64,000 nucleotides of DNA from the NCBI GenBank assembly GCA_021163425.1, contig JAGGWS010000038.1:10418-74417 (forward strand), in the 5' to 3' direction. The stretch comes from Candidatus Omnitrophota bacterium (GTDB lineage: Bacteria > Omnitrophota > Gorgyraeia > Duberdicusellales > Duberdicusellaceae). Of this stretch, positions 13,312 through 64,000 are shown in pieces. Made by a program: the position numbers and the translations under genes. The stretch's first letter is position 1, and each line of letters begins with the position of its first letter. Below the pieces are notes generated by a model. The model saw nothing but the letters and a program-made list of their open reading frames with translations. It made no database searches and had not been told where the DNA came from.

Positions 13312-14190
13312 TCAAAATTTAATCTCTGGCACTTGAAGAGGGTCTTTTTTAAGAGTGAATTTTAAAAAACTCTCACTACCCAATCTATATACAAAAACTC
13401 CTGAAGCTTTAGAATCTAAAAATCCTCTCAGAGAAGTATTTTCTTCTGGTTTTAGAAAGTCTTTTTTATACTCTGAGCCTGAAGACTTATTATAAGGTAA
13501 ATTATACAACTTAGCTAAATTAAACGTTCCCTCTAAGTCCAGATGAATATTTTCCAAAAGAACATAAGAGTCGGAAAAATAAATCCAGGGGAAACTTCCC
13601 CGGAAATTCAAAAAAACCCTCTCAATCTTATAATCTTCTAAATTAGCTCCGAAGGCTTCTAATTTACCCTCTATTAAAAGATTATCTAATCTTCCCTGTA
13701 GGGTGATTTTACCCCGAAAGTCTCCTTGAAAAGGAAAATCTTCTACCCCTAAAAATTTATTTAATTTTCTTAAACTCATTCCTTTTATATCTATATCTAA
13801 TTTTAAAACCGGCTGAGGAGAAAAATCGATATTACCACTAATAATAAATCCTTCTCCTCTGAAATAGCTAAGAGTTAAGACCCCTCCTTTATAGATAATG
13901 TAGGAAGAAAAATTCTTAGTTTTACGCTGATTAAGGGATATTCTTATAGGGTTAAGATTAAAAATAAATAAGTCTTTGTCTTTTTTAACTCTTCCTTGAA
14001 AACTAAGGCTGAGTTTCTTCCCTAAGAAAATTAAATCATCCCACTCACCCTTACAAGAATAAAAAGAATCTTCTTTTCTCAAAAAAAGAGTTGGAGAAAC
14101 TTCTTCCTGGAAAGTTCTCTTCTCAGGGTAAGAAAAACCTGAATTAAAAAGACCCACAAATATAAAAAAAAATACTAAAAATCTGGTCAT
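13312..14190 (-). CDS. secreted hypothetical protein
   Basis: N-terminal signal peptide ([20 protein letters not shown]). No recognisable catalytic motifs. Lies between the mla genes and clpC. Confidence 0.4.
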
Positions 14191-22727: not shown

Positions 22728-24143
22728 TTATAGAGAAAGGAGATTTAAAATAGATTGGGAAGCCTTTTTAGCAGTAGCCATTGCTGAGATTACTGTCCCT
22801 TCCCCACCTACTATATCTCCTCCAGCATAGACCTTTTTAAGAGAAGTCTCCATGGTTTCGGGATTAACCAAGATATCGCCAGACTTATCCAGTTGAATCT
22901 GAGGAGTAGCAGAAGTCAATACTCTATTTGCCTTTAAACCAATAGCAATTATTACTACATCAGCCTCTATCTCAAATTCACTGCCTTCAATAGGAAAAGG
23001 CTTCCTTCTTCCTGAAGAATCGGGTTTGCCTAATTTACACTTCAAAGCTCTTATTTTTTTTACAAACCCTCGCTCATCGCCAATAAACTCTACCGGCTGA
23101 ACCAGAAATTCAAAATTAACTCCTTCTTCTTTAGCATGTTCAATCTCTAATCTTCTTGCCGGCATCTCCACCTCTGTTCTTCGGTAAATTACGGTAGTAT
23201 CAGGTTTTAAACCTTGCCCGAGCTGAACTCTTAAAGAAGAACGGGCAGCATCCATGGCAGTATTCCCTCCACCAATAACCACAACCTTCTCTCCAATATT
23301 TATAGGAGTATGAAATTGGGGGAATTTAAAAGCAGACATTAAGTTAATCCGGGTTAAAAACTCATTGGCTAAATAGATATTTCCCAGATTTTCTCCCTTT
23401 ATCCCTAAAAAAGAGGGAGTACCTGCTCCTAAACCTAAAAATATAGCCGAAAAATCTTTCTCCAGCTCAGATAAAGGTTTGGTCTTCCCTACTATAAAGT
23501 TAGTTATAAATTCTACTCCCATACTTTTAAGATAGTTAATTTCAAAGTCTAAGATAGGCCGAGGCAATCGGAAAGGAGGGATACCATACCTTAAAACTCC
23601 TCCCAATTGATGAAGGGCTTCAAAAACCACTACTTTTACGCCTTGACGAGCTAATTCTCCAGCACAGCACAACCCGGCTGGACCTGAACCTACTATCGCC
23701 ACCTTTTCTTTGAATTTTGAATTTTGAATTTTGAATGTTAAGTTTTGATAATTTTTTATCCCCCAATCTCCAATAAATCTTTCTAAAAAATGTATGTTTA
23801 TTGCTTCTGGAGAAGCAAAAGGCTTATCCTTATTTCTATTTAATATACAGAATTTTCTACATTGATACTCAGCAGGACAAACTCTTCCGCAGATAGCTGG
23901 AAAGTTATTCTTCTCCCGAATAGTAAGATAAGCAGATTTATAATCTCTCTGAGTAATTTCAAAGATAAATTTTTTTATATCTATTCCTACTGGACAACCC
24001 TGGATACATTTAGGTTCTTTACACTGAAGACACCTCTTAGCTTCTTCTTGAGCTCCTTCTTCAGAATAACCTAAAGCTACCTCTTCAAAACTCCTTATTC
24101 TTTCTGAAGGTAAAAGCTCCTTAATTTTTACAGGACCTTTCAT
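22728..24143 (-). CDS. nfnB: NADPH-dependent glutamate synthase small-subunit-like oxidoreductase (NfnB/SudA/GltD family)
   Basis: N-terminal 2x[4Fe-4S] motif (CLQCKEPKCIQGCPV ... CGRVCP), FAD and NAD(P) Rossmann motifs (VAIVGSGPAGL, VVVIGGGNTAMD). The track start at 24188 is a TTG; the ATG at 24143 (MKGPVKIK) is the likely start. Confidence 0.8.
   Translation of the reverse strand: MKGPVKIKELLPSERIRSFEEVALGYSEEGAQEEAKRCLQCKEPKCIQGCPVGIDIKKFIFEITQRDYKSAYLTIREKNNFPAICGRVCPAEYQCRKFCILNRNKDKPFASPEAINIHFLERFIGDWGIKNYQNLTFKIQNSKFKEKVAIVGSGPAGLCCAGELARQGVKVVVFEALHQLGGVLRYGIPPFRLPRPILDFEINYLKSMGVEFITNFIVGKTKPLSELEKDFSAIFLGLGAGTPSFLGIKGENLGNIYLANEFLTRINLMSAFKFPQFHTPINIGEKVVVIGGGNTAMDAARSSLRVQLGQGLKPDTTVIYRRTEVEMPARRLEIEHAKEEGVNFEFLVQPVEFIGDERGFVKKIRALKCKLGKPDSSGRRKPFPIEGSEFEIEADVVIIAIGLKANRVLTSATPQIQLDKSGDILVNPETMETSLKKVYAGGDIVGGEGTVISAMATAKKASQSILNLLSL
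23708..23735. repeat. heptamer tract (TTGAATT)x3.5 inside the nfnB coding sequence
   Basis: ctttgaattttgaattttgaattttgaatg encodes FKIQNSKFK just before the FAD-binding GxGxxG. Confidence 0.6.
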
Positions 24144-24154
24144 CTCTGAAACGT

Positions 24155-24191
24155 AACTTGACAAAATGTTTTCAAAAGAAAGTGTCAAGTT
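24155..24191. repeat. palindromic element copy (minus orientation) in the nfnA-nfnB intercistronic junction
   Basis: Minus-strand reading AACTTGACActttcttttgaaaacatttTGTCAAGTT. It shares its spacer with the 42719 copy at 17 of 19 positions, includes the nfnA stop codon, and ends 11 nt before the nfnB ATG. Confidence 0.7.
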
Positions 24192-25030
24192 ACGAGTTTA
24201 TAAAGTTTACAAATATGTTTTTCTTTATCCTCATAGATTTTATTGCGCAAACTGAGTTCAGTCCAGTCTATTAAATGAGCTTCAAATTCTGGGCCATCTA
24301 CACAACAAAATTTAATTTCACCTCCTACACTCACCCTACAACAGCCACACATCCCAGTCCCATCCACCATCAAAGCATTTAAAGAAACTAATGTCTTTAT
24401 CTTAAATCTTTGGGTAATTTCAGAAACCTTCTTCATCATTGGAATAGGACCAACTGCATAAATTAGTTTGTATCTATCGCCCTGACTTTCTGAACTTTCT
24501 AATAATTCTTTTAATACATCAGTAGTAAACCCCTTCCTGCCATAAGAACCATCATCAGTAGTAATATAAAACTCATCAGACATCTTTCTTAAATCTTCTT
24601 CTAAAATTAACAAATCTTTATTTCTTGCTCCTAATATAGTGGTTAAGTGGTTTCCTTCTTCTTTAAAAGCCCTGGCTAAAGGAAAAATCTCGGCAATCCC
24701 TACCCCTCCTCCTACTAAAATTACTCTTCCATAATTTTTAATTTCTGCAGGGTTGCCTAAAGGACCGACCAAACTATATAAACCATCTCCTTTGTTCAAT
24801 CTCCCTAAAAGTTTTGTAGTTAAACCTACTTCCTGAAAAATTAAACTAATACTTTGATTTTTTAAATTTTTATCTACAATAGTTAAGGGAATCCTTTCTC
24901 CTACTTCCGAAACCATCAAGATTACAAACTGACCAGGCTTAAAAGCTTTACAGATTTCTTCAGCTAAAACTTCTAAGTAAACTATACGGGGCTCTCTTTC
25001 AGCTAAAACTTTTTTATCTAATATCTTCAT
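24185..25030 (-). CDS. nfnA: ferredoxin-NADP reductase-like subunit (NfnA/SudB, PyrK-like)
   Basis: FAD/NAD-binding fold with a C-terminal CGCC...C 2Fe-2S motif (GMCGCCRV). Adjacent to the GltD-like partner. Confidence 0.75.
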   Translation of the reverse strand: MKILDKKVLAEREPRIVYLEVLAEEICKAFKPGQFVILMVSEVGERIPLTIVDKNLKNQSISLIFQEVGLTTKLLGRLNKGDGLYSLVGPLGNPAEIKNYGRVILVGGGVGIAEIFPLARAFKEEGNHLTTILGARNKDLLILEEDLRKMSDEFYITTDDGSYGRKGFTTDVLKELLESSESQGDRYKLIYAVGPIPMMKKVSEITQRFKIKTLVSLNALMVDGTGMCGCCRVSVGGEIKFCCVDGPEFEAHLIDWTELSLRNKIYEDKEKHICKLYKLVT

Positions 25031-42718: not shown

Positions 42719-42755
42719 AACTTGACACTTTATTTTCAAAACATTTTGTCAAGTT
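42719..42755. repeat. 37-bp palindromic intergenic element AACTTGACA-N19-TGTCAAGTT (reference copy)
   Basis: AACTTGACActttattttcaaaacatttTGTCAAGTT. The right arm supplies the TGA stop of the radical-SAM gene. Related copies are listed as separate features. Confidence 0.7.
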
Positions 42756-43753
42756 AGCCAGCATAAGGGGTCAGAAGCCAGATAATCCCCTTTTAAGGCA
42801 TAACTTAAAGCCCTGCATCCTGAACATCCTTGAACATTACAATTTCCACACTTACCTTTAAGGTTTCTTCTCTCTCTAAGAAGGTTTAAAACCGGAGAAC
42901 TCTCCCAGATTTTAGAAAGCCTATCTTTAAGAAGATTACCAATTTCTAAAGGAAATCTTCGACAGGGAAAGACTCCAGCCCCCGGCATTAAAGCACAGCC
43001 AAATTTACCTACCACACATTCTGCTCCAAATAATTCCTCCTGGAAATTTTTAAATTCTACTTTTAAAGCAGGAAATTTGACTGCTTCCTCAAAGAAATCC
43101 ACCCCTACTTTAGAAAATATTCTCTGATACACGCTTTTAAGTTCCAAAGGAGAAATCATCTGAGTATCTTTAATCTTCAAAGAATTCCCTAAAGGAATAA
43201 ATCTCTCTAAGATAACCCCCTTTATACCTAAGTCTTTAGAGAAATCCACCAGATAGTCTACTTCCTTTAAGTTTTTCTTAAGGAGAGTAAACATTAAAAT
43301 TAAGTTAAAACCTTCTCTCTGTAAAATTTTCACATTCTTTAAAACCTTATTAAACACCCCTTCTCCCCGGAAATAGTCATTAACCTCAGGAGTTACTCCT
43401 TCTAAGGAGAAAAAAATTGTATCTATCTTATCTTTAACCTTCCTCAAAGGGCCTATAAATCTATCTACGAGAGTTAAATTAGTAATTATATTTAAAGAAG
43501 ATAAAACTTCTGAAGAAGAAAGATAATCTATAAGTTTAAATAATTCTTTCTTCAAAAAAGGCTCTCCGCCAGTAAGAGAAAGACTTAAACTACTTCCCCA
43601 TAATTTCATAGTCTCTATTAAATTATCAGCCACCATTTTAAGATCCTGCCAGTTTAATTCTCTCTTTTGAGAAAAATCATCCTGATAACAATGTTTACAG
43701 AGTAAATTACAATTATCGGTTATATGCCACTGAATATGAAAGTCTTTCTCCAT
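42749..43753 (-). CDS. radical SAM enzyme with C-terminal SPASM/twitch Fe-S domain
   Basis: CNLLCKHC (CxxxCxxC) radical-SAM motif near the N-terminus. C-terminal Cys cluster CGNCNVQGCSGC... typical of SPASM maturases. Confidence 0.75.
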   Translation of the reverse strand: MEKDFHIQWHITDNCNLLCKHCYQDDFSQKRELNWQDLKMVADNLIETMKLWGSSLSLSLTGGEPFLKKELFKLIDYLSSSEVLSSLNIITNLTLVDRFIGPLRKVKDKIDTIFFSLEGVTPEVNDYFRGEGVFNKVLKNVKILQREGFNLILMFTLLKKNLKEVDYLVDFSKDLGIKGVILERFIPLGNSLKIKDTQMISPLELKSVYQRIFSKVGVDFFEEAVKFPALKVEFKNFQEELFGAECVVGKFGCALMPGAGVFPCRRFPLEIGNLLKDRLSKIWESSPVLNLLRERRNLKGKCGNCNVQGCSGCRALSYALKGDYLASDPLCWLT

Positions 43754-47637: not shown

Positions 47638-47804
47638 ACCCCCCCTTCTTAGAAACTAATTTTATCACAAAGCCTAAAATCTGTAAAAGGAGATTCCTAT
47701 CTTGGTTATTATATCTTGACTATTGTATCTTGGTTATTAGTTATAGTTACACCGCCAGGTCTAATTAAACTTATTCATTGGAAATTGGAAATTTACATAG
47801 CTGT

Positions 47805-47841
47805 AACTTGACATTTTACTTTCGAAGTATTTTGTCAAGTT
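47805..47841. repeat. palindromic element copy (plus orientation, variant spacer) with AAATTTACATAGCT 5' extension
   Basis: AACTTGACAttttactttcgaagtatttTGTCAAGTT, preceded by GGAAATTGGAAATTTACATAGCTGT and followed by a short octamer array. Confidence 0.65.
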
Positions 47842-47878
47842 TACACGTTTTAACGTTTATATGTTTTCACGTTTCTAT
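47842..47878. repeat. short YACGTTYW octamer array (about 4 units)
   Basis: tacacgtt ttaacgtt tatatgtt ttcacgtt tc, directly abutting the palindromic element. Confidence 0.5.
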
Positions 47879-51858: not shown

Positions 51859-51930
51859 TTTACACGTTTATACGTTTACACGTTCACACGTTTCTACGTT
51901 CACACGTTTCTACGTTTTTACGTTCATACG
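51859..51930. repeat. tandem array of about 9 copies of the 8-bp unit YACGTTYW
   Basis: tacacgtt tatacgtt tacacgtt cacacgtt tctacgtt cacacgtt tctacgtt tttacgtt catacgtt, read off directly. Confidence 0.8.
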
Positions 51931-51966
51931 TTTTAACATATTATTTTGAAAACATTTTGTCAAGTT
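51931..51966. repeat. palindromic element copy with degenerate left arm (TTTAACA) and conserved spacer/right arm
   Basis: ttttaacatattattttgaaaacatttTGTCAAGTT, 7 nt after the stop of the Cas4-like nuclease gene and abutting the octamer array. Confidence 0.6.
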
Positions 51967-51972
51967 AGGGGG

Positions 51973-53465: not shown

Positions 53466-53604
53466 TTTTACGTTCACACGTTCATACGTTTACACGTTTA
53501 CACGTTTTTACGTTTACACGTTTTTACGTTTACACGTTTTCACGTTTACACGTTCATACGTTTTTACGTTCATACGTTTACACGTTCATACGTTTACACG
53601 TTTT
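53466..53604. repeat. tandem array of about 17 copies of the 8-bp unit YACGTTYW
   Basis: tacgttca cacgttca tacgttta cacgttta cacgtttt tacgttta cacgtttt ... Continuous 8-bp periodicity over about 140 bp, immediately upstream of the glgC remnant start. Confidence 0.85.
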
Positions 53605-56600: not shown

Positions 56601-56662
56601 GTAATAAGAAGTGCTTGAGCCTTTCTAATCACTTTTTTCCTCAAAAGGTAAGTAAGTAACAA
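53654..56662 (-). CDS. giant GspK-like minor pseudopilin / secreted multidomain protein
   Basis: N-terminal pilin-like hydrophobic segment without Glu5 (KAQALLITITVLSVLAITGF), as in GspK. Contains a GspK-like DEASKLNLNY motif and an acidic Ca-binding-like repeat (DGIDNDLDGVVDEKDEGIDEPDEEG). 1002 aa versus about 330 aa for canonical GspK. Confidence 0.45.
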   Translation of the reverse strand: MLLTYLLRKKVIRKAQALLITITVLSVLAITGFSLLLFSLYEVRYSRIYLDNVKAQYLAEAGLTLGRELLKQDKKENFSDSLEDSFYTQLKGEDLDLDKDGIKESRYFEVKNFEGRLYGRFGVQILDEASKLNLNYCGESSFRYGLDLSELNINSLFSFLGISKSTSLIRLRRGSDEKPGLEDYDDDSDNLILISDGIDNDLDGVVDEKDEGIDEPDEEGFGDDRLFLAPEETREFLTLPSGLRFRNYFTVYSKDKELDSFGRRRIALSASFQDVLMGFLSSGVRFPFQKAANFIDFQDKDLSQTVLDKFYKRIKPVSSSGGSFRKSGNYFYAPRGGAPSTFKFQNLNIPDGEYFCFFYSPFEDLGIGYVSVQDIEDCDVYNGEGLYLPVKVEGGELEFRIKPFEDRDCALEYIELVSPENREGLVHTSLRGRESLVINEVMIKPSLEFLVEKSQNPGGSWVWKGGYYENKDLASGIEGEGRWVFSVGRRGYFYIKFFANTTGGYIGDVVISGRSLKGVRDGMVFPYPVYIDGDLLIKIQNNSLTEVSTFKKIVVSQEPDAEFIEILNITPREIDIGNFSIEVTQEKKAVLGWPAIIPQGTKIRPYEHLILAIDKDDRSSPSYLRSNGISFQESWGTKAVQLEFSGKIEGCDDIIPDSSATIALKNPQGEIVDIVEYTSSQIRNYVSLERSDPTLLTDADGDGIFDGWFFSEAEAKATPSEHNDNSGIKEIDPKTLEVFYHNVREQVVLNQPLINIGYAEKIPSSLPWKRFSLRDIALLSDRFTSFVKHLGISSFVEGNFKEEDDSFFSFRRGEWGLWRFSNIPQGSYFLKILAEEDSSSVSIAVKTEQADTFDYLGPFYFHKGCLYYGNIEIESGGSLEIKVRNEEDGPLKIINFILEPEFIVSGRININTARKEILNLLLPSNSGIISQRPFGERSKRRLGIGDLLETTALGLTEFQKINNFKLICPFITTRSDVYEVITEAEYSGVRAVKHRLETVIER

Positions 56663-57014
56663 ATTCTTCTGAAAGCTTAGGAGTAGTTGAAGAATTAGAT
56701 TCTACCTTCAGGATAAGTTTTTTTAAATTCACTCCTTCTAAGACTTCCTCTTCTCCTAAAGAAATCTGCCAATCGAAATTTCCTTCTTTGCCTTCTGCTT
56801 CTTCAACTATATTATAAGTCTTTAACTCTTCTAACTTCTTCTTTGCTAAGAAAGCAGTATCCATCAATAGTTTTGATAATCTAAGTTGTTTCAGAGCCAG
56901 AGGAAACATATAGAAAACAGAGAGAAGCCCTCCAGCCAGGATAGCTATAGCAACCAAAATCTCAATAAGGGTAAAACTCCGCTGGCTCCTAAATCTTATC
57001 TTCCCCATCCTCAT
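56625..57014 (-). CDS. prepilin-type N-terminal domain pseudopilin (GspI-like)
   Basis: RSFTLIEILVAIAILAGG class III signal/methylation motif. 129 aa. Confidence 0.6.
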   Translation of the reverse strand: MRMGKIRFRSQRSFTLIEILVAIAILAGGLLSVFYMFPLALKQLRLSKLLMDTAFLAKKKLEELKTYNIVEEAEGKEGNFDWQISLGEEEVLEGVNLKKLILKVESNSSTTPKLSEEFVTYLPFEEKSD

Positions 57015-57072
57015 CTCATCCGATAAAGGCCTTAAGTAAATGGGCTAGGATAAACTCTCTAAAGAGAACTCC

Positions 57073-58101
57073 CTAACGAATTAAACTACCCATAGAAAAT
57101 ATAGGAAAGAATAAACCAACTACGATAAAACCCACTATCACCCCCATAAATACAATTAGAAGAGGTTCAAGTAAAGAAATAATTCCCGATAAAGAAGCAG
57201 TAACATCCTCCTCATAATCCTGAGCTATTTCTAAAAATACTGAAGAAAGTCTTCCTGAATCTTCAGCCACTTCTACAATCTTAACTAAAGAACCTGGGAA
57301 AATCTTTGCTTCTTCCATACTTTCCGAAAGGCTACTACCCGATTCAATCTTCTCTATTAAAAAATCTATAGACTCTTTAAGAAGAGGGTCTACTACCACT
57401 TCTCTAGTGGCTAATAAAGATTTAACTAAAGGGACCCCTGAAGAAAGCATCACTCCCAAAGAATGAGAAAATCTCTCAATTGCTATATCTTTTAAAAACT
57501 TACCTATTACAGGGAGTTTCCATCTATAAATATTAATCTTGTAAGCTCCGGCAGGAGTTCTTTTAATTAAATTATAACCAGCTATCATAAGCACTACTAA
57601 CAGAATAAAAAGATAACTCCACCGGGCTAAAAACTTAGAAGTATTTATCAAAAATAAAGTAAGTGGCGGAAGTTCTCCTCCTAAGTCTTTAAATATATTA
57701 GTTAAAGTAGGAACGACAAAAATCATTAACACCGCCAATACAATAACTGCAGTCACCAGAATAAGTATTGGGTACATTAAAGAAGTGATTATCTTCTGCT
57801 TAAGCCTCCGACTGCGCTGAAGAAAATCCGAAAGCTCCCGAAGGGCAGGTGCTAATTTTCCGCTAATTTCTCCTGCCTTCACCATATTTATATAAATTTG
57901 AGGGAAAATATTTTTGTGATGTTCTAAAGCTTCTGAAAGAGGCTCACCTTCCTGAATATCTTCAACCAATCTTTTAACTACTTTCTTAATTCGTGAAGGG
58001 TCCATCTGCTCATAAAGAGTCTCTAAACTCTTTAATATAGGTATGCCTGATTTCATAAGCATAGAAAAGCTTCTGGTAAAATCTATTACATCTTTTCTCA
58101 T
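57073..58101 (-). CDS. type II secretion / type IV pilus platform protein (GspF/PilC family)
   Basis: Two T2SF domains separated by transmembrane helices (…MLMKSGIPILKSLE…, …MLSSGVPLVKSL…). Confidence 0.8.
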   Translation of the reverse strand: MRKDVIDFTRSFSMLMKSGIPILKSLETLYEQMDPSRIKKVVKRLVEDIQEGEPLSEALEHHKNIFPQIYINMVKAGEISGKLAPALRELSDFLQRSRRLKQKIITSLMYPILILVTAVIVLAVLMIFVVPTLTNIFKDLGGELPPLTLFLINTSKFLARWSYLFILLVVLMIAGYNLIKRTPAGAYKINIYRWKLPVIGKFLKDIAIERFSHSLGVMLSSGVPLVKSLLATREVVVDPLLKESIDFLIEKIESGSSLSESMEEAKIFPGSLVKIVEVAEDSGRLSSVFLEIAQDYEEDVTASLSGIISLLEPLLIVFMGVIVGFIVVGLFFPIFSMGSLIR

Positions 58102-58658
58102 CTTCCCACAGGAATATTTATTAGTTCCTGATAATTCTCTCTACGGCCTTTATAACTTAAAGTAAGCTCTGTCTTGACTGCTAAAGGTAATTCTTTATAA
58201 GAATTTTCCCATTTTTCTCCATCAAAAAAACTAAAGTTCAGACTCTCTATACTGGAGCTTAATACCTCTTCTTTATCAAAAGTATTGAAGTTAAAATCAC
58301 ATTTTGATTCTCTTCTTACTAAACTTTTTTTCTCAGGAAGAAAAATATAGCCTATCTCCCTAAGTCCTTCGGAATCAGGATAAACAAAAAATAAAGCCTG
58401 CTTATCTCCTTTAAATATTTCTCCTTCCCCCCGGATAATCTCTTCATTTGCTCTTAGAGCAGAAGAAAGTTCTCTGGATATCACCCAGAATACCCTCTTT
58501 AGATTCTGGTATCTCTGGGCTAAAACTTGAGCCTCCTGATAAGAAAGAAGGGCACTTCTAAAAATTGTGCCCACAATAGTTATCACCGCAACAAAAATCC
58601 CTATAGCAATTAGAACCTCTATTAAGGTGAAACTAATCTTTCTCAGAAAAATACTCAT
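58098..58658 (-). CDS. prepilin-type pseudopilin (GspJ/GspH-like)
   Basis: MSIFLRKISFTLIEVLIAIGIF prepilin motif. The track start at 58679 is a TTG; the ATG at 58658 is the likely start. Confidence 0.6.
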   Translation of the reverse strand: MSIFLRKISFTLIEVLIAIGIFVAVITIVGTIFRSALLSYQEAQVLAQRYQNLKRVFWVISRELSSALRANEEIIRGEGEIFKGDKQALFFVYPDSEGLREIGYIFLPEKKSLVRRESKCDFNFNTFDKEEVLSSSIESLNFSFFDGEKWENSYKELPLAVKTELTLSYKGRRENYQELINIPVGR

Positions 58659-58667
58659 AGCTAAGGA

Positions 58668-58695
58668 TATAACTTTCAAAACATTTTGTCAAATT
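58668..58695. repeat. partial palindromic element (conserved spacer plus right arm TGTCAAATT)
   Basis: tataactttcaaaacatttTGTCAAATT between the stop of the 510-aa gene (58700) and the start of the pseudopilin gene (58658). The left arm is not recognisable. Confidence 0.45.
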
Positions 58696-58699
58696 ACGC

Positions 58700-60232
58700 T
58701 TATTTTCTCTTAAAGAAAAGTATTTTCTGGAGTTTTTCTATAAAGGTCTCTTCTTTCACAGTCCAACTCCATTGAGCAGGGGTGGGGTCTTCCTCATAGA
58801 GAGAAATTAACCCATCTCCATCTATATCTAAGCCAGCTTTGACTTTGAATAAGTGAACTCCCAAACTTAGACCAGAAAAACTCACGCTTTTTTCTTTCTT
58901 CCAGGAAGACCACTCCGAACCATCTAAAGAATAACTGAACAAACACCCCTCACGGGAAGCCTGATAATAAAATGTAGCTTCTTTCTCAGGAGTTAAACTG
59001 GAAGGACCACTTATTATTCGAGTATCAGGAGCCAATACTACTAAGTCAATATCATCAGAAAATACAGGAGATACATTTCCAGCATAATCTTCAAACTTAA
59101 TATAAACTGTCTTCTTCCCGGATATATCCGGCTCTTTCAGAAGCCAATCCTCTATTAAAGCCTTGAATTCCAGCGGATTATCCATCTCCGTATCAAAAAC
59201 ACCATCATTGGATATGTAGATATACTTTATTCCACTTACCTCATCAGAAGCTGTAATTTTTAGAGTAACATAAGGAGAATTAGTTACAGGGTCATCATTA
59301 TTTATCACCACACTACCCTGAGGGGAATGAGTATCTACAATAAAGCTCCAGGCTTTGCTAACCTGGTTTCCTATGTTGTCCTCTGCCTTTATTAAAACTA
59401 TATTTTCTCCATCGGGCAAACTTCCCTTATAGGAATAAATATTCTTATCCTCAGCAAACTTTCCAGAGACTTCTTCTCCATTCAGGAAAAACTGTAAACT
59501 ACTTAAGTTGACCCCTGAATGTAAATCTTCTACCTTACAACTTATCTCCACAAAGCTCTGGTTAATAAGCTCAGAAACAGCCGGGGTTAACTCAGTTACA
59601 GAAGGATGAGTAGTATCTACCCAAATCTCAAAGCTTAGAGGTTGCCCCCAGACTTTTCCTCCTCCATAAGGGGCTACATAAAAGATATGTTTTCCATCAG
59701 AGAGGCTGTCCTGAGGATACTGATAAAAAGAAAACTCTGTATCTACCTCCCCATCAGGAAGACTATCTAAAGAGAAACTAAACCCTTTTATTAAAACAGG
59801 TGGGTTAATAACAACAATCCAGTAAAAATAGGGGTCATTATCTTTCTGCCATACTGACGGAGAAATTTCAAAGCCACCCAGATGAGTTTTTGCACGAAGT
59901 TCAGCTATTTCATAGAGCACTTCTCCTACCAGGACAGGCCAGTAACAACTAAAATTAATCCCTATCTGAGTACTTGCAACTTCTACAGGCACTGAAAACA
60001 ACTGTCCGACAACAAAGTAAGTAAGGCGGCGCTCACTAAAAGAAGCAAAACCCAGACTGGTGCCTATACTTATAAGCTCAATCTCATAATTAGAAGAGGC
60101 AGCCTGCTCAGCATATACCCCTGATACAATATAAAGGATAAAGAATAAAATAATAATTTGAAATTTGAAATTTGAAATTTGAAATTTATTACTTTGAAAT
60201 TTGAAATTTGAAATTTGAAATTTATTACTCAT
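58700..60232 (-). CDS. secreted protein of unknown function with a repeat-encoded N-terminus
   Basis: The N-terminus MSNKFQISNFKFQ-SNKFQISNFKFQ is encoded by a 36-bp tandem duplication, then a hydrophobic signal-like segment IIILFFILYIVSGVYA-EQ. The ATG overlaps the TGA of the upstream ATPase gene (ATGA). Confidence 0.45.
   Translation of the reverse strand: MSNKFQISNFKFQSNKFQISNFKFQIIILFFILYIVSGVYAEQAASSNYEIELISIGTSLGFASFSERRLTYFVVGQLFSVPVEVASTQIGINFSCYWPVLVGEVLYEIAELRAKTHLGGFEISPSVWQKDNDPYFYWIVVINPPVLIKGFSFSLDSLPDGEVDTEFSFYQYPQDSLSDGKHIFYVAPYGGGKVWGQPLSFEIWVDTTHPSVTELTPAVSELINQSFVEISCKVEDLHSGVNLSSLQFFLNGEEVSGKFAEDKNIYSYKGSLPDGENIVLIKAEDNIGNQVSKAWSFIVDTHSPQGSVVINNDDPVTNSPYVTLKITASDEVSGIKYIYISNDGVFDTEMDNPLEFKALIEDWLLKEPDISGKKTVYIKFEDYAGNVSPVFSDDIDLVVLAPDTRIISGPSSLTPEKEATFYYQASREGCLFSYSLDGSEWSSWKKEKSVSFSGLSLGVHLFKVKAGLDIDGDGLISLYEEDPTPAQWSWTVKEETFIEKLQKILFFKRK
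60156..60227. repeat. perfect 36-bp tandem duplication, each unit containing (TTTGAAA)x4 + TTTATTAC
   Basis: tttgaaatttgaaatttgaaatttgaaatttattac occurs twice back-to-back. It encodes the first 24 residues of the 58700-60232 protein. Confidence 0.85.
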
Positions 60233-61881
60233 CCTCCCAACACCCTTAAAACTTCCTGAAGAGAAGTTTTAGCTTCTACTATTTTGGAGAAGCCATCTTC
60301 TTTCAAGGTTCTAAATCCTTTCTTCTGAGCATAAACTCTAATCTCATCGGAAGAGGCTTTCTCCACAATTAAATTGTCAAAACCTGAATCAAGCTCTAAC
60401 ACCTCAAATATAGCTACTCTGCCCTTAAAACCTGTCCGGCTACATTCCTGACATCCTGAAGGTTCAAAAATACCCACCTGTTTGTCAGAAGGTAAAGGCT
60501 CCAATCCCAGAGATTTCCTCAATTGACTCAAAGATATACTCCTTTCTCTTTTACAGTTAGAACATAAAACCCTCACTAATCTCTGGGCTATAACCCCTTT
60601 TAAAGAAGAAGCTACCAGAAATGGTTCAAGGCCCATATCTATAAGTCTTGTTACTGCTGAAGGGGCATCGTTGGTATGAAGGGTTGATAAAACTAAGTGT
60701 CCGGTTAGACTTGCCTGAATAGCAATCTGGGCTGTTTCTCTATCTCTAATTTCGCCAACCATCACAATATCAGGGTCATGCCTTAAAATTGAACGCAACC
60801 CGGAAGCAAAAGTAAGCCCTACAGCAGGATTAACCTGAATCTGTTTGGCAAAATCTAAATGATATTCTACAGGGTCTTCAATAGTAATTATGTTTTTTTC
60901 CACACTCCTTATTTTTAAAAGAGAGGCATAGAGAGTGGTGGTTTTTCCTGAACCAGTAGGACCGGTAACTAAGATTATTCCTGCGGTCTGCTTTAAAAGC
61001 TGTTTATATTTAGTTAAGTTTTCCTTAGAAAAACCTAACTCCTCAAGGGAAAATAAACCTTTCTCTCTCTCTAAAAGCCTTAAAACAATACTCTCTCCTT
61101 CTACCAGAGGGATAACTGAGATTCTTACATCAATAGGCCGATTGGAAACTTGAACCTGAAATCTTCCATCCTGAGGCCGTCTCCTCTCAGCAATATCTAA
61201 GTTTGCCATAATTTTCAAGCGGGCAATTATGGCATTATAAAGATAAAGAGGAGGCGCTTTAAAAGAATGAAGAACCCCATCAATCCTGAAACGGATACTT
61301 ACCTTATCTCCTCGGGGCTCAATATGGATATCTGAGGCTCTTAAATTCACTGCTTCAGCAATCAATAAGTCTACCAGCTTTATTACTGAAGGCTTCTCTT
61401 TCTGGACTTTAACTTCTTCTAACTGGCTTTCTTCTGAGGGGGCAAAAAATGTCTTAATAAACGAATCTAAATTATCCTTATTAACAAGGTATAACTTAAT
61501 AAACAACCCAGTATGAAACCGCAACTCTTCTAAAGGCTCCAGTTTGAAGGGGTCAGATAAGCCCACTTTCAAAATATTTCCTTCCTGCTGAAGAGGAATG
61601 ATCCTGAATTTAGTTATAAACTCCTGAGGAACCAGTTCTAAAACCTCCTTGGCGGGAATAAAATCCTTCAAGGAAAAAATCTCTATATGAAGTTTGCTCG
61701 ACAAAAAATTTATTAAAGTTTCTTCGTCCATAAGCCCCAGGGTTCTTATAGAATCGGCTAAAGTAGTCTGACTCCTCTCTTTTTCTATCTCTAAAGTTAT
61801 TGCCTGTTCCTGAGTGATAAGGCCTTCGGAAACTAAACTCTTAACCAGAGAATCTCTCAACTCTCTTTTTTCTAACTCCAT
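60229..61881 (-). CDS. type II secretion / type IV pilus assembly ATPase (GspE/PilB family)
   Basis: N-terminal T2SE_N-like domain, Walker A GPTGSGKTTT, Asp/His boxes and a tetracysteine motif (CSNCK...CQEC). Confidence 0.9.
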   Translation of the reverse strand: MELEKRELRDSLVKSLVSEGLITQEQAITLEIEKERSQTTLADSIRTLGLMDEETLINFLSSKLHIEIFSLKDFIPAKEVLELVPQEFITKFRIIPLQQEGNILKVGLSDPFKLEPLEELRFHTGLFIKLYLVNKDNLDSFIKTFFAPSEESQLEEVKVQKEKPSVIKLVDLLIAEAVNLRASDIHIEPRGDKVSIRFRIDGVLHSFKAPPLYLYNAIIARLKIMANLDIAERRRPQDGRFQVQVSNRPIDVRISVIPLVEGESIVLRLLEREKGLFSLEELGFSKENLTKYKQLLKQTAGIILVTGPTGSGKTTTLYASLLKIRSVEKNIITIEDPVEYHLDFAKQIQVNPAVGLTFASGLRSILRHDPDIVMVGEIRDRETAQIAIQASLTGHLVLSTLHTNDAPSAVTRLIDMGLEPFLVASSLKGVIAQRLVRVLCSNCKRERSISLSQLRKSLGLEPLPSDKQVGIFEPSGCQECSRTGFKGRVAIFEVLELDSGFDNLIVEKASSDEIRVYAQKKGFRTLKEDGFSKIVEAKTSLQEVLRVLGG

Positions 61882-61934
61882 TGCACTTACTCCTTTCTAC
61901 GAAACCCGGGTAATTGTTCATCTCTGAAAACCTA

Positions 61935-61964
61935 TTGACAAAGAATAAAAATTAATACTATACT
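61935..61964 (+). promoter_or_regulatory. sigma70-like promoter (TTGACA-N18-TATACT) upstream of a small ORF
   Basis: TTGACA at 61935-61940, TATACT at 61959-61964, followed by AAGGAG and an ATG at 62036. Confidence 0.4.
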
Positions 61965-62035
61965 TTTTGCTAATATGAAAATAAGTGATAATATTTTTAT
62001 CTCTCAGTTACTTTTTTCAAAAGGAGTATAAACCT

Positions 62036-62128
62036 ATGTGGTACGGAATCGCTGCTTTTTTAGCTACTATCGTTTTAGCTATCTTTGCCTATCTTACAAC
62101 ACACAAGTCTCATACTACCAAACATTAA
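62036..62128 (+). CDS. 30-aa hydrophobic small protein (hypothetical)
   Basis: MWYGIAAFLATIVLAIFAYLTTHKSHTTKH, a single transmembrane helix. Good SD (AAGGAG, 7 nt spacing) and an upstream promoter. Not in the ORF track because of its length. Confidence 0.3.
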   Translation: MWYGIAAFLATIVLAIFAYLTTHKSHTTKH

Positions 62129-62173
62129 ACTAAAAGTATAGGCCGTCTCTTCTCCTGCTCAACGTCGGCAGAT

Positions 62174-62322
62174 TCACACGTTCACACGTTCTCACGTTCA
62201 CACGTTCATACGTTCTCACATTCACACGTTCACACGTTCTCACGTTCATACGTTCTCACGTTCATACGTTCTCACGTTCATACGTTCACACGTTCACACG
62301 TTTTTACATTTATACGTTCTAC
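62174..62322. repeat. tandem array of about 19 copies of the 8-bp unit YACGTTYW
   Basis: cacgttca cacgttct cacgttca cacgttca tacgttct cacattca ... The longest array in the window. Lies in the 800-bp non-coding region between the PilB-like gene and hup. Confidence 0.85.
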
Positions 62323-62525
62323 GAAACCGCTTTAAACTTTTATCCCAATTATTATAATACGAGTTCTATTTTTTGAAAAGTGCTTAGTTTTTGGATACAG
62401 AAAAAAAGACGCCGGCATACACTTAAACTCAAACTCCGGAGTATTCTACCAACTATTAGTTATTGATTATTGATATTGATTGAGGATCGCCCTCGATTCC
62501 TCAAAAATTTATTGAAAATTTACAT

Positions 62526-62561
62526 AGCTTGACATTTATTCTGAAAAAATTCTGTCAAATT
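62526..62561. repeat. palindromic element variant AGCTTGACA-N18-TGTCAAATT with AAATTTACATAGCT 5' extension
   Basis: gaaaatttacatAGCTTGACAtttattctgaaaaaattcTGTCAAATTacgttct. It shares the 5' extension with the 47805 copy and is followed by one ACGTT unit. Confidence 0.55.
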
Positions 62562-62598
62562 ACGTTCTTAGACTATTAGCAAAAAATATAATAAATTC

Positions 62599-62628
62599 TT
62601 GACAAAATAAAGAGGCTAATATATAAAT
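62599..62628 (+). promoter_or_regulatory. candidate promoter of hup (TTGACA-N18-TATAAA)
   Basis: TTGACA at 62599-62604 and TATAAA at 62623-62628. RBS AAGGAGG at 62668-62674 before the ATG at 62679. Confidence 0.4.
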
Positions 62629-62678
62629 ATTCTACAGGGCTTAAAAGATTGGTAGTTTAAAGCAAGAAAGGAGGAAGA

Positions 62679-62948
62679 ATGAATAAAGCCCAGTTGATAG
62701 CTAAGGTGGCTGAAAAAACTGAAACTAAAAAACAAGCCCAGGAAATAGTAGAACTTATCTTAGATACTATTAAGAGTACTCTTAAGAAAAGAGAGCCAGT
62801 AGCAATTTCAGGATTCGGGACTTTCAGAGTAAAAGAGACTAAGCCCCGAACCGGAAGAAATCCTAAGACTGGTGAAACTATTCAGATCCCTGCTAAGAAG
62901 AAATTATCCTTCAGAGCCTCTAAGGAACTTAAATCAATTATTATCTAA
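62679..62948 (+). CDS. hup: DNA-binding protein HU
   Basis: MNKAQLIAKVAEKT...GFGTFRVKETKPRTGRNPKTGETIQIPAKKKLSFRASKELK, the canonical HU/IHF fold sequence. 89 aa. Confidence 0.9.
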   Translation: MNKAQLIAKVAEKTETKKQAQEIVELILDTIKSTLKKREPVAISGFGTFRVKETKPRTGRNPKTGETIQIPAKKKLSFRASKELKSIII

Positions 62949-62958
62949 ACAGGTTTTA

Positions 62959-63009
62959 GCCCCTTCTATCTCTTTAGATATCTTAAATAGGTAGAAGGGG
63001 TTTATTTTT
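62959..63009 (+). terminator. rho-independent terminator after hup
   Basis: GCCCCTTCTA ... TAGAAGGGG stem followed by TTTATTTTT. Confidence 0.55.
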
Positions 63010-63031
63010 AAACTAAATAGGGAGCCAAACG

Positions 63032-63505
63032 ATGGGAAGGATTTATCTTACAAAAGAAGGCTACGAAAAACTCTTTCAGGAATTAGAATATTTAAAAAAA
63101 GTCAAACGCAAAGAGCTAAGCAAACGGATAGAAGAAGCCCGCTCCTTAGGAGATATCTCTGAAAACGCTGAATATGACTCAGCAAAAGAGGCCCAGCTCA
63201 ATCTGGAGAAAAAGATTAGAGAGCTGGAAACTAAGCTATCTTCAGCAATTATTATCTCACCTCAAGATGTAAACTTAGAAAAGGTAAGTATAGGAACAAA
63301 AATCCTCTTAAGAGACTTAGATACTGGCGAAGAATTCTTTTACATAATCTTAAGTGATGAAGAGGCAGATTTTGAAAGAAATGAAATTGGAATAAGTTCT
63401 CCGGTAGCTTGTGCTCTCTTAGGTAAAAAGAAAGAAGATGTAGTAGAAATTAAAGTTCCTCGCGGAATTTTAAGGTATAAAATATTAGACATTAGCCTGC
63501 CTTAA
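63032..63505 (+). CDS. greA: transcription elongation factor GreA
   Basis: N-terminal coiled coil (LTKEGYEKL..EL..L) and a C-terminal FKBP-like domain. 157 aa. Confidence 0.9.
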   Translation: MGRIYLTKEGYEKLFQELEYLKKVKRKELSKRIEEARSLGDISENAEYDSAKEAQLNLEKKIRELETKLSSAIIISPQDVNLEKVSIGTKILLRDLDTGEEFFYIILSDEEADFERNEIGISSPVACALLGKKKEDVVEIKVPRGILRYKILDISLP

Positions 63506-63528
63506 CTTTCAAAATATCCCCTGTTTTT

Positions 63529-64000
63529 TCAAGTGCCTATCTTCAGAGAAGAAAACATTTTTCTTAAAAGAGCCTGAGCTGAAGCTATGGCTAAACTGCT
63601 GGTCTTAGGATTCAGAGAAGAAGGGATATTTTCTACTTCAACCTCTATTTTTCCTATCTGAGAAAGTAGATAAATTTTGTGAGTATTTCTTTTAAGTTTA
63701 GGCTCAAGAACAATTTCTACCTGCAAATCTTTAAATTTAGAAGCAAAAAGTAAGGTAGAAGCTACATTAATATTCTGAGGAAAATATTTAAAAGCCTGTT
63801 CTGCCTTCCCCCTGAATAAAATCTTCTTCTGGGAAGTATTGAGGTTTATTTTCTTATTTTTTATATATTCAACACCCTTAAAACCCTGAAGAGGTTTAGA
63901 AGTAATTAGTAAACATTTCTTTATCTTAGCACAAGAAGAAGCCAATATCCCGTCAACCCCACAGATAGCTCCTGAAGGAAGATAAATGTTTATACCTTTC
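63529..64000 (-). CDS. C-terminal part of an aspartate-dehydrogenase-like (NadX-type) oxidoreductase, 5'-truncated by window edge
   Basis: The frame stays open to the window end (…KGIKHYLPSGAICGVDGILASS…). The C-terminal …NPKTSSLAIASAQALLRKM resembles NadX C-terminal motifs. The track start is only a TTG. Confidence 0.35.
   Translation of the reverse strand, partial: KGINIYLPSGAICGVDGILASSCAKIKKCLLITSKPLQGFKGVEYIKNKKINLNTSQKKILFRGKAEQAFKYFPQNINVASTLLFASKFKDLQVEIVLEPKLKRNTHKIYLLSQIGKIEVEVENIPSSLNPKTSSLAIASAQALLRKMFSSLKIGT

What the first reader, a model, noticed from the sequence alone, without database searches (positions are those of the whole stretch)
60156..60227. 36-bp perfect tandem duplication with TTTGAAA heptamer tracts at the 5' end of a secreted protein gene: candidate contingency locus
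The first 24 codons of the 510-aa secreted protein (58700-60232) are two identical 36-bp units, each with four TTTGAAA heptamers. A heptamer gain or loss by slipped-strand mispairing shifts the frame and would switch the protein off. Gain or loss of a whole 36-bp unit keeps the frame but changes the N-region of the signal peptide (SNKFQISNFKFQ). The gene lies inside a type II secretion / type IV pilus-like cluster and encodes a likely surface or secreted product, the classic setting for phase variation. Related GAAATTT motifs recur next to two palindromic element copies (47781-47802, 62505-62525), and a TTGAATT x3.5 tract sits inside nfnB.
Basis: partly seen in the sequence, partly recalled or inferred. 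Interest (0 to 1): 0.55.

Follow-up and report, generated by a model that had tools for sequence, protein, structure and literature searches.

The report
Heptamer repeat inside a signal peptide
The perfect 36-bp duplication is real and codes for the cleaved-off front end of an exported pilus-operon protein in an uncultured Omnitrophota bacterium, but comparison with relatives points to a fixed, frame-preserving expansion of a repeat type common in these genomes rather than an on/off switch.

Summary
Observation confirmed. Window 60158-60229 is a 36-bp unit repeated twice at 100% identity. Each unit holds four AAATTTC heptamers (gene strand). The repeat forms codons 2-25 of a 510-aa protein with tandem Ig-like domains. 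Its ATG overlaps the TGA of a T2SSE/PilB-type ATPase in a type II secretion / type IV pilus-like operon of Candidatus Omnitrophota.

Gain or loss of one heptamer would truncate the protein. The comparative data do not support a contingency locus:
- Six assemblies of this lineage carry the identical state. One of them differs in a nearby octamer array.
- Relatives have one unit (82% identity), ten heptamers in 21-nt super-units (96%), or a decayed array (76%). All are in frame.
- No slippage-type OFF allele exists in the protein clusters.
- A five-heptamer intergenic copy in the 82% lineage has the same length in eight contigs.

The tract belongs to a wider class. Period-7 arrays dominate the tandem repeats of some Omnitrophota genomes and lie mostly between genes or at gene 5' ends. 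In a distant lineage, 84-nt heptamer-array hairpin modules are inserted in frame into two pseudopilin leader sequences of the same operon.

Best reading: a frame-constrained, evolutionarily unstable repeat element tolerated in the signal-peptide n-region. Read-level heterogeneity is untested.

The parts
60194..60229 (-). 36-bp unit 1 (codons 2-13, SNKFQISNFKFQ). Heptamer tract (AAATTTC)x4 at 60196-60223.
60158..60193 (-). 36-bp unit 2 (codons 14-25), identical to unit 1. Heptamer tract (AAATTTC)x4 at 60160-60187.
60229..60238 (-). Gene junction GGGAGGATGA. It holds a Shine-Dalgarno-like GGGAGG (60233-60238). The ATG start of the 510-aa gene (60230-60232) overlaps the TGA stop of the ATPase gene (60229-61231 read as 60229-60231). 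The ATGA/GTGA overlap is kept in all related lineages.
60110..60157 (-). Rest of the predicted signal peptide (codons 26-41): h-region IIILFFILYIV and c-region SGVYA, with cleavage-type motif VYA|EQ. It is partly coded by a second, weaker heptamer array TTTATYC x about 3 (60131-60149). It is complementary to the SD/start region in the predicted mRNA hairpin.
58700..60232 (-). Gene for the 510-aa exported protein with four tandem Ig-like/FN3-like beta-sandwich domains. The family was found only in Omnitrophota-labelled sequences.
60229..61881 (-). T2SSE/PilB-type secretion ATPase gene (MshEN + T2SSE domains), immediately upstream. Translationally coupled by the ATGA overlap (coupling is inferred).
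56625..58679 (-). Downstream operon genes: GspJ-like pseudopilin (58098-58679), GspF platform protein (57073-58101) and a pseudopilin (56625-57014).
23709..23748 (-). Related heptamer tract (TTTGAAT x4 perfect, 5.7 imperfect) in the inter-domain linker of the nfnB/gltD-like gene. It encodes FKIQNSKFK. The linker length is identical in all homologues.
47777..47843 (+). Intergenic module (ATTGGAA)x2.4-ATTTACATAGC followed by the palindrome TAACTTGACA-N-TGTCAAGTT. This is the same array-plus-ATTTA(C) motif class.
62460..62570 (+). Intergenic module upstream of the operon: (TTATTGA)x3.3, a GC hairpin, TTATTGAAAATTTACATAGC, and a degenerate TTGACA...TGTCAA palindrome.

Best explanation
The tract is a heptanucleotide microsatellite, (AAATTTC)n on the gene strand. 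It lies in the sequence coding for the n-region of a Sec-type signal peptide.

In an ancestor of this clade, four heptamers were inserted or expanded between the initial M-S-N-K and the hydrophobic core. In the window's lineage, a 36-bp segment (codons 2-13) was then duplicated once, in frame. That duplication became fixed.

The n-region is tolerant of length: it ranges from 0 to about 30 residues across the family. It is removed by signal peptidase, so such changes are close to neutral, provided the frame and the Lys-rich character are kept. Selection removes out-of-frame variants.

The tract is one member of a lineage-typical class of period-7 arrays. These arrays populate intergenic spacers and gene junctions in some Omnitrophota genomes. 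They are absorbed into coding sequence where genes abut, which is the case in this secretion/pilus operon.

Shown: the anatomy, fixation in 6 assemblies, the in-frame allelic series, and the existence of the wider class.

Inferred: origin by slippage or hairpin-mediated template switching, near-neutrality, and cleavage of the signal peptide.
For: 1. The two-unit state is identical in the window and five other assemblies. One of these, L058, was found through the neighbouring ATPase, not through the repeat-bearing protein. On L058 the octamer array about 300 nt upstream differs by two units. Repeat-length differences are therefore detectable in these data.

2. The allelic series is entirely in frame:
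- 39 nt from the start codon to the h-region in the 82% lineage (at least 15 contigs)
- 75 nt here
- 81 nt in the 96% lineage, where A/G variants form a 21-nt super-unit
- a decayed ARGTATC version in the 76% lineage
- no repeat in the 59% homologue

3. The 90%-identity clusters hold no slippage-type truncated allele. The only short member, P0079, is a join to another locus through a second copy of the array.

4. An intergenic (TTTCAAA)x5 array between yfiO/SPOR and miaA in the 82% lineage has the same length in 8 contigs from at least 7 samples. The nfnB tract sits in a linker of invariant length.

5. Period 7 accounts for 36 of 52 tandem arrays (period at least 5, at least 3 copies) in the Omnitrophota loci, and for 14 of 16 perfect arrays with period 5-11. 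Most are intergenic or within 120 nt of an ORF start.

6. All five length differences at coding arrays are multiples of 3: +36 and +42 nt in this clade, and +84, +84 and +51 nt in L029 versus L060. Chance expectation is (1/3)^5 = 0.004.

7. The family's n-region length ranges from 0 to about 30 residues, with a conserved cleavage-type motif.
Against: Only consensus assemblies were compared. A minority of length variants inside populations would be invisible.

Several contigs were found by exact protein identity, which biases the sample toward the same allele.

The region has changed length at least three times among lineages that differ by 24% or less in protein sequence. It is therefore unusually mutable.

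Heptamer arrays arose independently at the 5' ends of genes of the same operon in a distant lineage. That recurrence hints at a selected role rather than pure tolerance.

Near-neutrality and signal-peptide cleavage are inferred, not measured. No signal-peptide predictor was available.
Confidence: 0.58

Rival explanations
1. Contingency locus. Slipped-strand mispairing adds or removes single heptamers at high frequency. This reversibly switches the exported protein OFF and ON, as in neuO, opa or autA/autB.
For: - The frame arithmetic is correct.
- The position in the signal-sequence coding region of an exported protein in a pilus/secretion operon matches known switches. Examples are the autA/autB AAGC repeats just after the start codon (PMC5118866) and the neuO heptamers at the 5' end (PMC13001214).
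- Array length differs among related lineages.
- Arrays recur at the 5' ends of four genes of the same operon in L029.
- One pair of contigs (L037/L038) has the gene cut off from its start codon, with an ATG one heptamer out of frame.
Against: - No OFF allele and no within-lineage length variant were found in about 25 contigs.
- neuO shows 3-53 copies and 65.6% OFF genomes.
- There are only 4 perfect units per tract.
- Changes between lineages are in-frame events of 36, 42, 51 and 84 nt, not single-unit steps.
- The 96% lineage's array is interrupted by A/G variants.
- The unconstrained intergenic 5-unit array is invariant in 8 contigs.
- A similar tract lies in the housekeeping gene nfnB.
- L037/L038 is a join through another array copy, not a slip.
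Confidence: 0.12
2. Functional RNA hairpin at the cistron junction. The self-complementary array (AAAUUU palindromes), together with pairing between the SD/AUG region and the h-region codons, sequesters the start site. Translation of the 510-aa gene would then depend on ribosomes terminating at the overlapping UGA of the ATPase gene (strict translational coupling). Alternatively the hairpin modulates mRNA stability. The duplication lengthens and stabilises the hairpin.
For: - The window sequence folds at -29.1 kcal/mol with z = -4.6. Unit 1 pairs with unit 2, and the SD/AUG lies in the basal stem.
- The analogous L029 modules, with start codons in the 5' arm, fold at -36 to -53 kcal/mol with z = -4 to -6. 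They sit exactly at gene junctions.
- The ATGA/GTGA overlap is conserved across the family.
Against: - The one-unit and 10-heptamer relatives do not fold better than shuffles (z = -0.6 and -1.7).
- The helix is A-U only, with a mismatch every seventh position.
- Covariation across four lineages is inconclusive: 1 compensatory pair of 20, and a covariation term of +0.69.
- K-rich n-regions and F/I/L-rich h-regions are complementary by the nature of the genetic code in AT-rich genomes.
- No Rfam family matches.
Confidence: 0.18
3. Footprint of a small mobile or copy-paste palindromic element (MITE/RPE-like) built from heptamer arrays. Such an element would insert at gene junctions and survive only when in frame. 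The tract would be selfish DNA taken up as leader sequence. This concerns origin and is compatible with the best explanation.
For: - Presence/absence polymorphism between close relatives. Two nearly identical 84-nt modules lie in the pseudopilin 5' ends of L029 and are absent from L060, which is about 92% identical.
- Inserts of about 200 nt carrying (ATTGAAA)4 arrays and TAACTTGACA palindromes are in L059 but not at the orthologous window sites.
- Inverted heptamer arrays flank a PF05635 (23S rRNA IVS protein) gene that replaces a serine recombinase gene.
Against: - The window holds only one such locus and no PF05635 gene.
- Heptamer sequences differ from locus to locus.
- No target-site duplication or transposase was identified.
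- In-situ expansion by slippage explains the same data.
Confidence: 0.3

Closest known systems
neuO heptanucleotide VNTR (E. coli K1, CUS-3 prophage O-acetyltransferase)
   Same: A 7-nt unit at the 5' end of the coding sequence. The repeat is translated. The protein is full length only when the copy number keeps the frame. (PMC13001214)
   Different: neuO has 3-53 copies and 65.6% of complete genomes are OFF. Minority alleles with one repeat more or fewer are measurable in culture. Here there are 4+4 copies, no variation in 6 assemblies and no OFF allele. The peptide encoded here is part of a cleaved signal peptide, not of the mature enzyme.
Neisseria autA/autB AAGC repeats. Also the opa CTCTT repeats (the latter from my own knowledge).
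   Same: [quoted passage not shown] (PMC5118866)
   Different: Those have a 4-5-nt unit, 3-40 copies that vary within clonal complexes, and most strains are OFF. None of these properties was found here.
Rickettsia palindromic elements inserted in frame in protein-coding genes (own knowledge: Ogata et al. 2000)
   Same: A hairpin-forming repeated element that is translated as part of a host protein. It is tolerated only in permissive positions and shows presence/absence differences between relatives. The same pattern is seen for the L029 modules.
   Different: RPEs are 100-150-bp non-microsatellite sequences with conserved family consensus. The elements here are short arrays of lineage-specific heptamers. 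Mobility is not shown.
Dispersed TAACTGA heptamer direct repeats of marine Beggiatoaceae and cyanobacteria
   Same: Lineage-restricted arrays of 2-6 heptamers concentrated just upstream of start codons. A role in translation is suspected but unproven. (PMC4679880)
   Different: The heptamer is different. TAACTGA carries stop codons and stays intergenic. The arrays here are stop-free on the gene strand and can be read through.
Long simple sequence repeats of prokaryotic genomes (Mrazek and co-workers, as summarised in PMC4679880)
   Same: Heptanucleotide repeats are the commonest long-unit class in many genomes. A link to polymerase slippage has been proposed.
   Different: That is a general statistical category. 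It does not predict placement in signal or leader peptides of one operon.

Membership tests
SSR-driven phase-variable (contingency) locus | Tract of identical short units placed so that a one-unit change alters the reading frame or the promoter spacing | tested here: met
   One heptamer more or less gives products of 16-51 aa. The tract is inside codons 2-25.
SSR-driven phase-variable (contingency) locus | Tract length polymorphic among closely related strains or populations, including out-of-frame (OFF) alleles | tested here: not met
   6 of 6 assemblies of this lineage are identical, as are at least 15 contigs of the one-unit lineage and 2 of 2 of the 10-heptamer lineage. No slippage-type truncated member exists in the 90% clusters. 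Consensus level only.
SSR-driven phase-variable (contingency) locus | Copy number high enough for high-rate slippage | tested here: inconclusive
   There are 4 perfect units per tract. Proven loci usually carry more: neuO 3-53 with a mode of 20, autB 3-19. No rate data exist for 4 heptamers.
SSR-driven phase-variable (contingency) locus | Reversible switching of expression within a clonal population | not testable with these tools
   Needs raw reads, single-cell or culture data. The organism is uncultured.
Sec-type (signal peptidase I) signal peptide | Positively charged n-region, hydrophobic h-region of about 10-15 residues, small residues at -3/-1 | tested here: met
   4 Lys and no acidic residue in residues 1-25. 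IIILFFILYIV follows. V-Y-A|E-Q aligns with AYG|LE and similar motifs in 40 homologues. Checked by inspection; no dedicated predictor was run.
Type II secretion / type IV pilus-like operon | Secretion ATPase, GspF/PilC platform protein and prepilin-type (N_methyl) pseudopilins in one gene cluster | tested here: met
   T2SSE E = 6e-136, T2SSF E = 2e-58, N_methyl plus weak T2SSJ hits. The gene order is conserved in relatives.
In-frame palindromic insertion elements (RPE/MITE-like) | Multi-copy dispersed family with insertion polymorphism between close relatives | tested here: inconclusive
   Met for the L029 modules versus L060 and for the L059 inserts versus the window. For the window's own array there is only one locus in 64 kb. 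In the 82% lineage there is a second, intergenic copy.
In-frame palindromic insertion elements (RPE/MITE-like) | Hairpin-forming sequence translated within a host ORF | tested here: met
   Window fold z = -4.6. L029 modules z = -4 to -6, with intact ORFs running through them.
TAACTGA-type dispersed heptamer repeats | The heptamer TAACTGA in direct repeats upstream of start codons | tested here: not met
   The units here are AAATTTC, ATTGAAA, AAAATGG and others.

The most novel reading that the evidence does not exclude
Heptamer-array hairpin modules may be an undescribed class of gene-junction element in Omnitrophota. They spread or expand at cistron boundaries of the type IV pilus-like operon. 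They donate start codons, since (AAAATGG)n carries an ATG in every frame. Their A-rich arm encodes a Lys-rich n-region and the complementary T-rich arm a hydrophobic core, so they natively encode leader or signal peptides. On this reading they would act as translational-coupling hairpins or as population-level switches of pilus components. The window's 36-bp duplication would then be a step that turns a single quasi-palindromic array into a full 28-nt-arm hairpin.
Probability: 0.15. Interest if true: 0.65.

Novelty: new member of a known kind. Interest (0 to 1): 0.35.

Why it matters
The tract itself is a modest result. It shows that a textbook-looking "contingency locus" can be a fixed, frame-constrained repeat. 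It also shows that comparison of orthologues and independent assemblies can separate the two readings before any wet work.

The wider pattern is more useful. Some Omnitrophota genomes are peppered with period-7 arrays at gene junctions. In their pilus/secretion operons these arrays are read through as signal or prepilin leader peptides, and whole 84-nt hairpin modules are gained in frame.

If these modules have a role in coupling, switching or creating export signals, they would bear on two questions. One is how an uncultured, possibly host-associated phylum regulates its surface machinery. The other is how new signal peptides arise from palindromic DNA.

Tried and rejected
1. Known RNA families. 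Rfam at E up to 1 on 58000-64000 gave only two sub-threshold chance hits, none at the tract.

2. Promoter reading. The consensus scan places no promoter-like site in the tract. The nearest is a weak 9/12 match at 60306-60278.

3. P0079 as an OFF allele. This 432-aa truncated cluster member looked like one. Its contigs (L037/L038) turned out to join the gene, exactly at the array, to the yfiO/SPOR-miaA locus, which carries its own (TTTCAAA)x5 array. It is a chimera or a recombinant, not a slip.

4. Different gene calls among L060, L061 and L062 suggested indels at gene starts. The DNA is identical.

5. phmmer with the 43-aa N-terminus against 1.8 billion representative proteins found nothing. 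The query is too short and too low in complexity, so the result is uninformative.

6. The exact 28-mer occurs in 5 viral contigs, including two giant-virus MAGs. I took it to be a generic AT-rich microsatellite and did not follow it.

7. Covariation test of the SD/h-region stem. Only four distinct sequences were available, so it is inconclusive.

8. The fold search gives only generic tandem Ig/FN3 adhesin-like matches such as GhpA, SiiE and cadherins. No specific function can be assigned.

9. A -1 ribosomal frameshift on A_AAU_UUC was considered. Both alternative frames stop within about 25 codons after the tract and nothing supports it, so it was dropped.
Full report
**What is there**

On the minus strand the sequence reads GGGAGG ATG [AGTAAT AAATTTC AAATTTC AAATTTC AAATTTC AA] x2 ATT ATT ATT TTA TTC.... 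Tandem Repeats Finder gives a 36-bp period, 2.0 copies, 100% identity and score 146 at 60157-60229. It also gives a period-7 array of 9.7 copies. The 14-mer TTTGAAATTTGAAA, with one mismatch allowed, occurs 7 times in the window against 0.44 expected.

The repeat is codons 2-25 of a 510-aa ORF (58700-60232). Its ATG overlaps the TGA of the upstream ORF. The upstream ORF is a T2SSE/MshEN secretion ATPase. Downstream lie a GspJ-like pseudopilin, GspF, another pseudopilin and a 1002-aa LTD-domain protein.

The 510-aa protein has a Lys-rich n-region (MSNKFQISNFKFQSNKFQISNFKFQ), a hydrophobic core (IIILFFILYIV) and a VYA|EQ motif. That motif aligns with AYG|LE-type motifs in 40 homologues. An AlphaFold model (pLDDT 80.6) shows a helix over the h-region, a poorly predicted stretch, and then four beta-sandwich domains. 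These resemble tandem Ig/FN3 adhesin modules. The named homologues are nearly all labelled Candidatus Omnitrophica/Omnitrophota (one is labelled Deltaproteobacteria).

**Is the duplication real and fixed?**

The exact protein occurs on four metagenome contigs from four samples. Look-ups through the neighbouring GspF and ATPase proteins do not depend on the repeat. They returned the same contigs plus L058, from a fifth sample. All carry the two-unit state base for base.

On L058 the octamer array about 300 nt upstream differs from the window by a 16-nt (two-unit) indel and one unit variant. This difference is near the contig end. It still shows that repeat-length differences can be seen among these assemblies, yet none occurs at the heptamer tract.

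**Orthologues**

- The 82% lineage (P0002, at least 15 contigs) has a single unit (MSNKFQISNFKFQ-IIIL).
- The 96% lineage (P0001/P0078, two contigs) has a GTG start and ten contiguous heptamers. In them AGATTTC and AAATTTC alternate in a 21-nt super-unit (MSSK(FQISNFR)3FQ).
- The 76% lineage (P0080) has a decayed version (AAGTATC AAGTATC ... AGGTATC, giving KYQVSPVRYQV).
- The 59% homologue has MRKIKIIILF with no such repeat.

The region is therefore evolutionarily unstable. Even so, every state is in frame, and the lineage-specific gains are 36 nt and 42 nt (2 x 21). They are not single heptamers.

The 90%-identity clusters contain no truncated member attributable to slippage. The one short member, P0079 (432 aa), comes from two contigs. 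In these the sequence upstream of the array is replaced by a miaB-yfiO/SPOR locus. That locus normally carries its own intergenic array, TGATATG-TTCAAA(TTTCAAA)3TTTCAA, before miaA. The contigs are therefore joined through about 26 nt of shared array. This is either an assembly chimera or a recombination event, and I could not tell which.

That intergenic array is free of any frame constraint. It has the same length in eight contigs from at least seven samples.

**Benchmarks**

In neuO, a proven heptamer switch at a gene's 5' end, 64 complete genomes show 3-53 copies and 65.6% are OFF. A culture shows a few per cent of alleles with one repeat more or fewer (PMC13001214). In autB, AAGC repeats in the signal-sequence region vary within clonal complexes, and most strains are OFF (PMC5118866). 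Nothing comparable is seen here.

**The wider class**

Among perfect arrays of at least 3 copies with period 5-12, the window holds only the two tracts and TTTGAAT x4 in the nfnB/gltD-like gene. The nfnB tract encodes FKIQNSKFK, in a linker whose length is the same in all homologues.

Across 27 Omnitrophota-centred loci, period 7 accounts for 36 of 52 arrays (period at least 5, at least 3 copies). Across 26 loci it accounts for 14 of 16 perfect arrays with period 5-11. Roughly half are intergenic, about ten lie within 120 nt of an ORF start, and few are internal.

Other instances:
- A 92%-identical relative of window 22.7-33.6 kb (L059) has (ATTGAAA)4 arrays beside TAACTTGACA...TGTCAAGTTA palindromes. 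They lie inside inserts of about 200 nt that are absent from the window. The window has the same motif class at about 47.8 kb and 62.5 kb.
- In the 82% lineage, inverted degenerate arrays (AAATTGC/AGATTAC/AAATTTC) flank a PF05635 gene. That gene replaces the body of a large serine recombinase gene upstream of miaB.

The most telling case is L029, a lineage in which the homologue is 41% identical. There every junction of the same operon carries an array:
- (AAAATGG)5-loop-(CCATTCT)4 modules form the leaders of two pseudopilins (MENGKWKMENGFRNLFFPFSILHSPFSKRG|FSLIEV).
- (ACGTACG)4 precedes the LTD protein's hydrophobic segment.
- The homologue of the 510-aa protein starts with an inverted pair of GGAAAAT/CCATTTT arrays.

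The sister contig L060 is about 92% identical in DNA. It has canonical short leaders (VKGG|FSLIEV and VKRA|FTLLEL) and lacks both 84-nt modules. Its homologue is 51 nt shorter at the array.

Together with +36 and +42 nt in the window clade, all five length differences at coding arrays are multiples of three. The chance of that is (1/3)^5 = 0.004. This is the signature of selection for an intact frame.

**RNA structure**

The window's junction folds at -29.1 kcal/mol (z = -4.6). Unit 1 pairs with unit 2, and the SD/AUG pairs with the h-region codons. The one-unit and ten-heptamer relatives are not better than shuffles (z = -0.6 and -1.7). The L029 modules fold at -36 to -53 kcal/mol (z = -4 to -6), with their start codons in the 5' arm. 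Covariation across four lineages is inconclusive.

An A-rich arm translates to a Lys-rich polar peptide, and its complement translates to Phe/Ile/Leu/Ser. A translated palindrome of this kind therefore resembles a signal peptide by construction. This follows from the genetic code. It may explain why such elements persist at these positions.

**Conclusion**

The tract could in principle switch the gene off. The comparative evidence instead favours a fixed, in-frame duplication inside a frame-constrained heptamer array. The array is tolerated because it encodes the dispensable n-region of a cleaved signal peptide. It is one instance of a lineage-typical class of gene-junction heptamer arrays.

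Rough probabilities:
- About 0.6 for this reading.
- About 0.12 for a true contingency locus.
- About 0.18 for a functional coupling or stability hairpin.

The decisive test is read-level length heterogeneity at 60150-60235, judged against control tracts. It could not be run here.

Noticed in passing
window 62173-62320, 53470-53603, 51859-51933, 47839-47878: Long intergenic arrays of ACGT-containing octamers (CGTGTGAA/CGTATGAA/CGTGAGAA and similar, up to about 18 copies). They lie next to TTGACA...TGTCAA palindromes, between co-directional genes. The array upstream of the pilus operon differs by two units between the window and contig L058.
   Followed up: partly
window 24157-24192, 42721-42757, 47807-47843, 51933-51968, 62528-62570: Dispersed palindromic element of about 40 nt, TAACTTGACA-N(about 20)-TGTCAAGTTA. 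It carries the -35 consensus TTGACA on both strands. One copy sits at the nfnA/nfnB junction. A copy also follows the 504-aa gene in the 82% lineage (L037 4130-4174).
   Followed up: partly
L037 193-661 (also L044, L049, L050): A PF05635 (23S rRNA intervening-sequence protein, four-helix bundle) gene flanked by inverted degenerate heptamer arrays. It replaces the body of a 552-aa serine recombinase gene that is intact in L042/L038, and it supplies a new 5' end for miaB. The left array differs between contigs: (AAATTGC)2... versus (TCCAAAT)3...
   Followed up: partly
L006-L011, the 6 nt before the ATG of the 504-aa gene: G5 versus G6 homopolymer polymorphism, three contigs each, in contigs that encode the identical 504-aa protein. 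It changes the ATPase C-terminus (LGG* versus LGDE*) and the geometry of the stop/start overlap. The window has GGGAGG instead.
   Followed up: no
L037/L038 (ERZ27227314 k141_155263, ERZ27227317 k141_757045): Two contigs from different samples, with different upstream alleles, join the yfiO/SPOR locus to the 504-aa gene exactly through the shared heptamer array. This leaves an ATG one heptamer out of frame. It is either an assembly chimera or array-mediated recombination, and this is unresolved. L037 also begins with 77 nt of Nextera adapter.
   Followed up: partly
L029 6438-6468 versus L060 about 3250-3300: At the same gspJ/LTD gene junction, two sister lineages carry different small elements. 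L029 has (ACGTACG)4. L060 has the GC-rich hairpin CCCTCCCCC-TTAAA-GGGGGAGGG.
   Followed up: no
L059 12986-17050 versus window 14187-16631: The PEP-utilising enzyme (PPDK-like) gene of the 92% relative is 1354 aa, with intein/LAGLIDADG Pfam hits. The window ORF at 14187-16631 (814 aa) may be its counterpart. Correspondence was inferred from gene order only and was not aligned. If it holds, this is an intein presence/absence difference.
   Followed up: no
L042 2929-3516 (miaB coding region): Four short arrays of period 7 or 8 (GTCACAAA, ACCAAGTC, ACGCAAT, CAAATTC) lie inside the miaB ORF of one lineage. Only one of them (CAAATTC) was also detected in the related contig L044.
   Followed up: no
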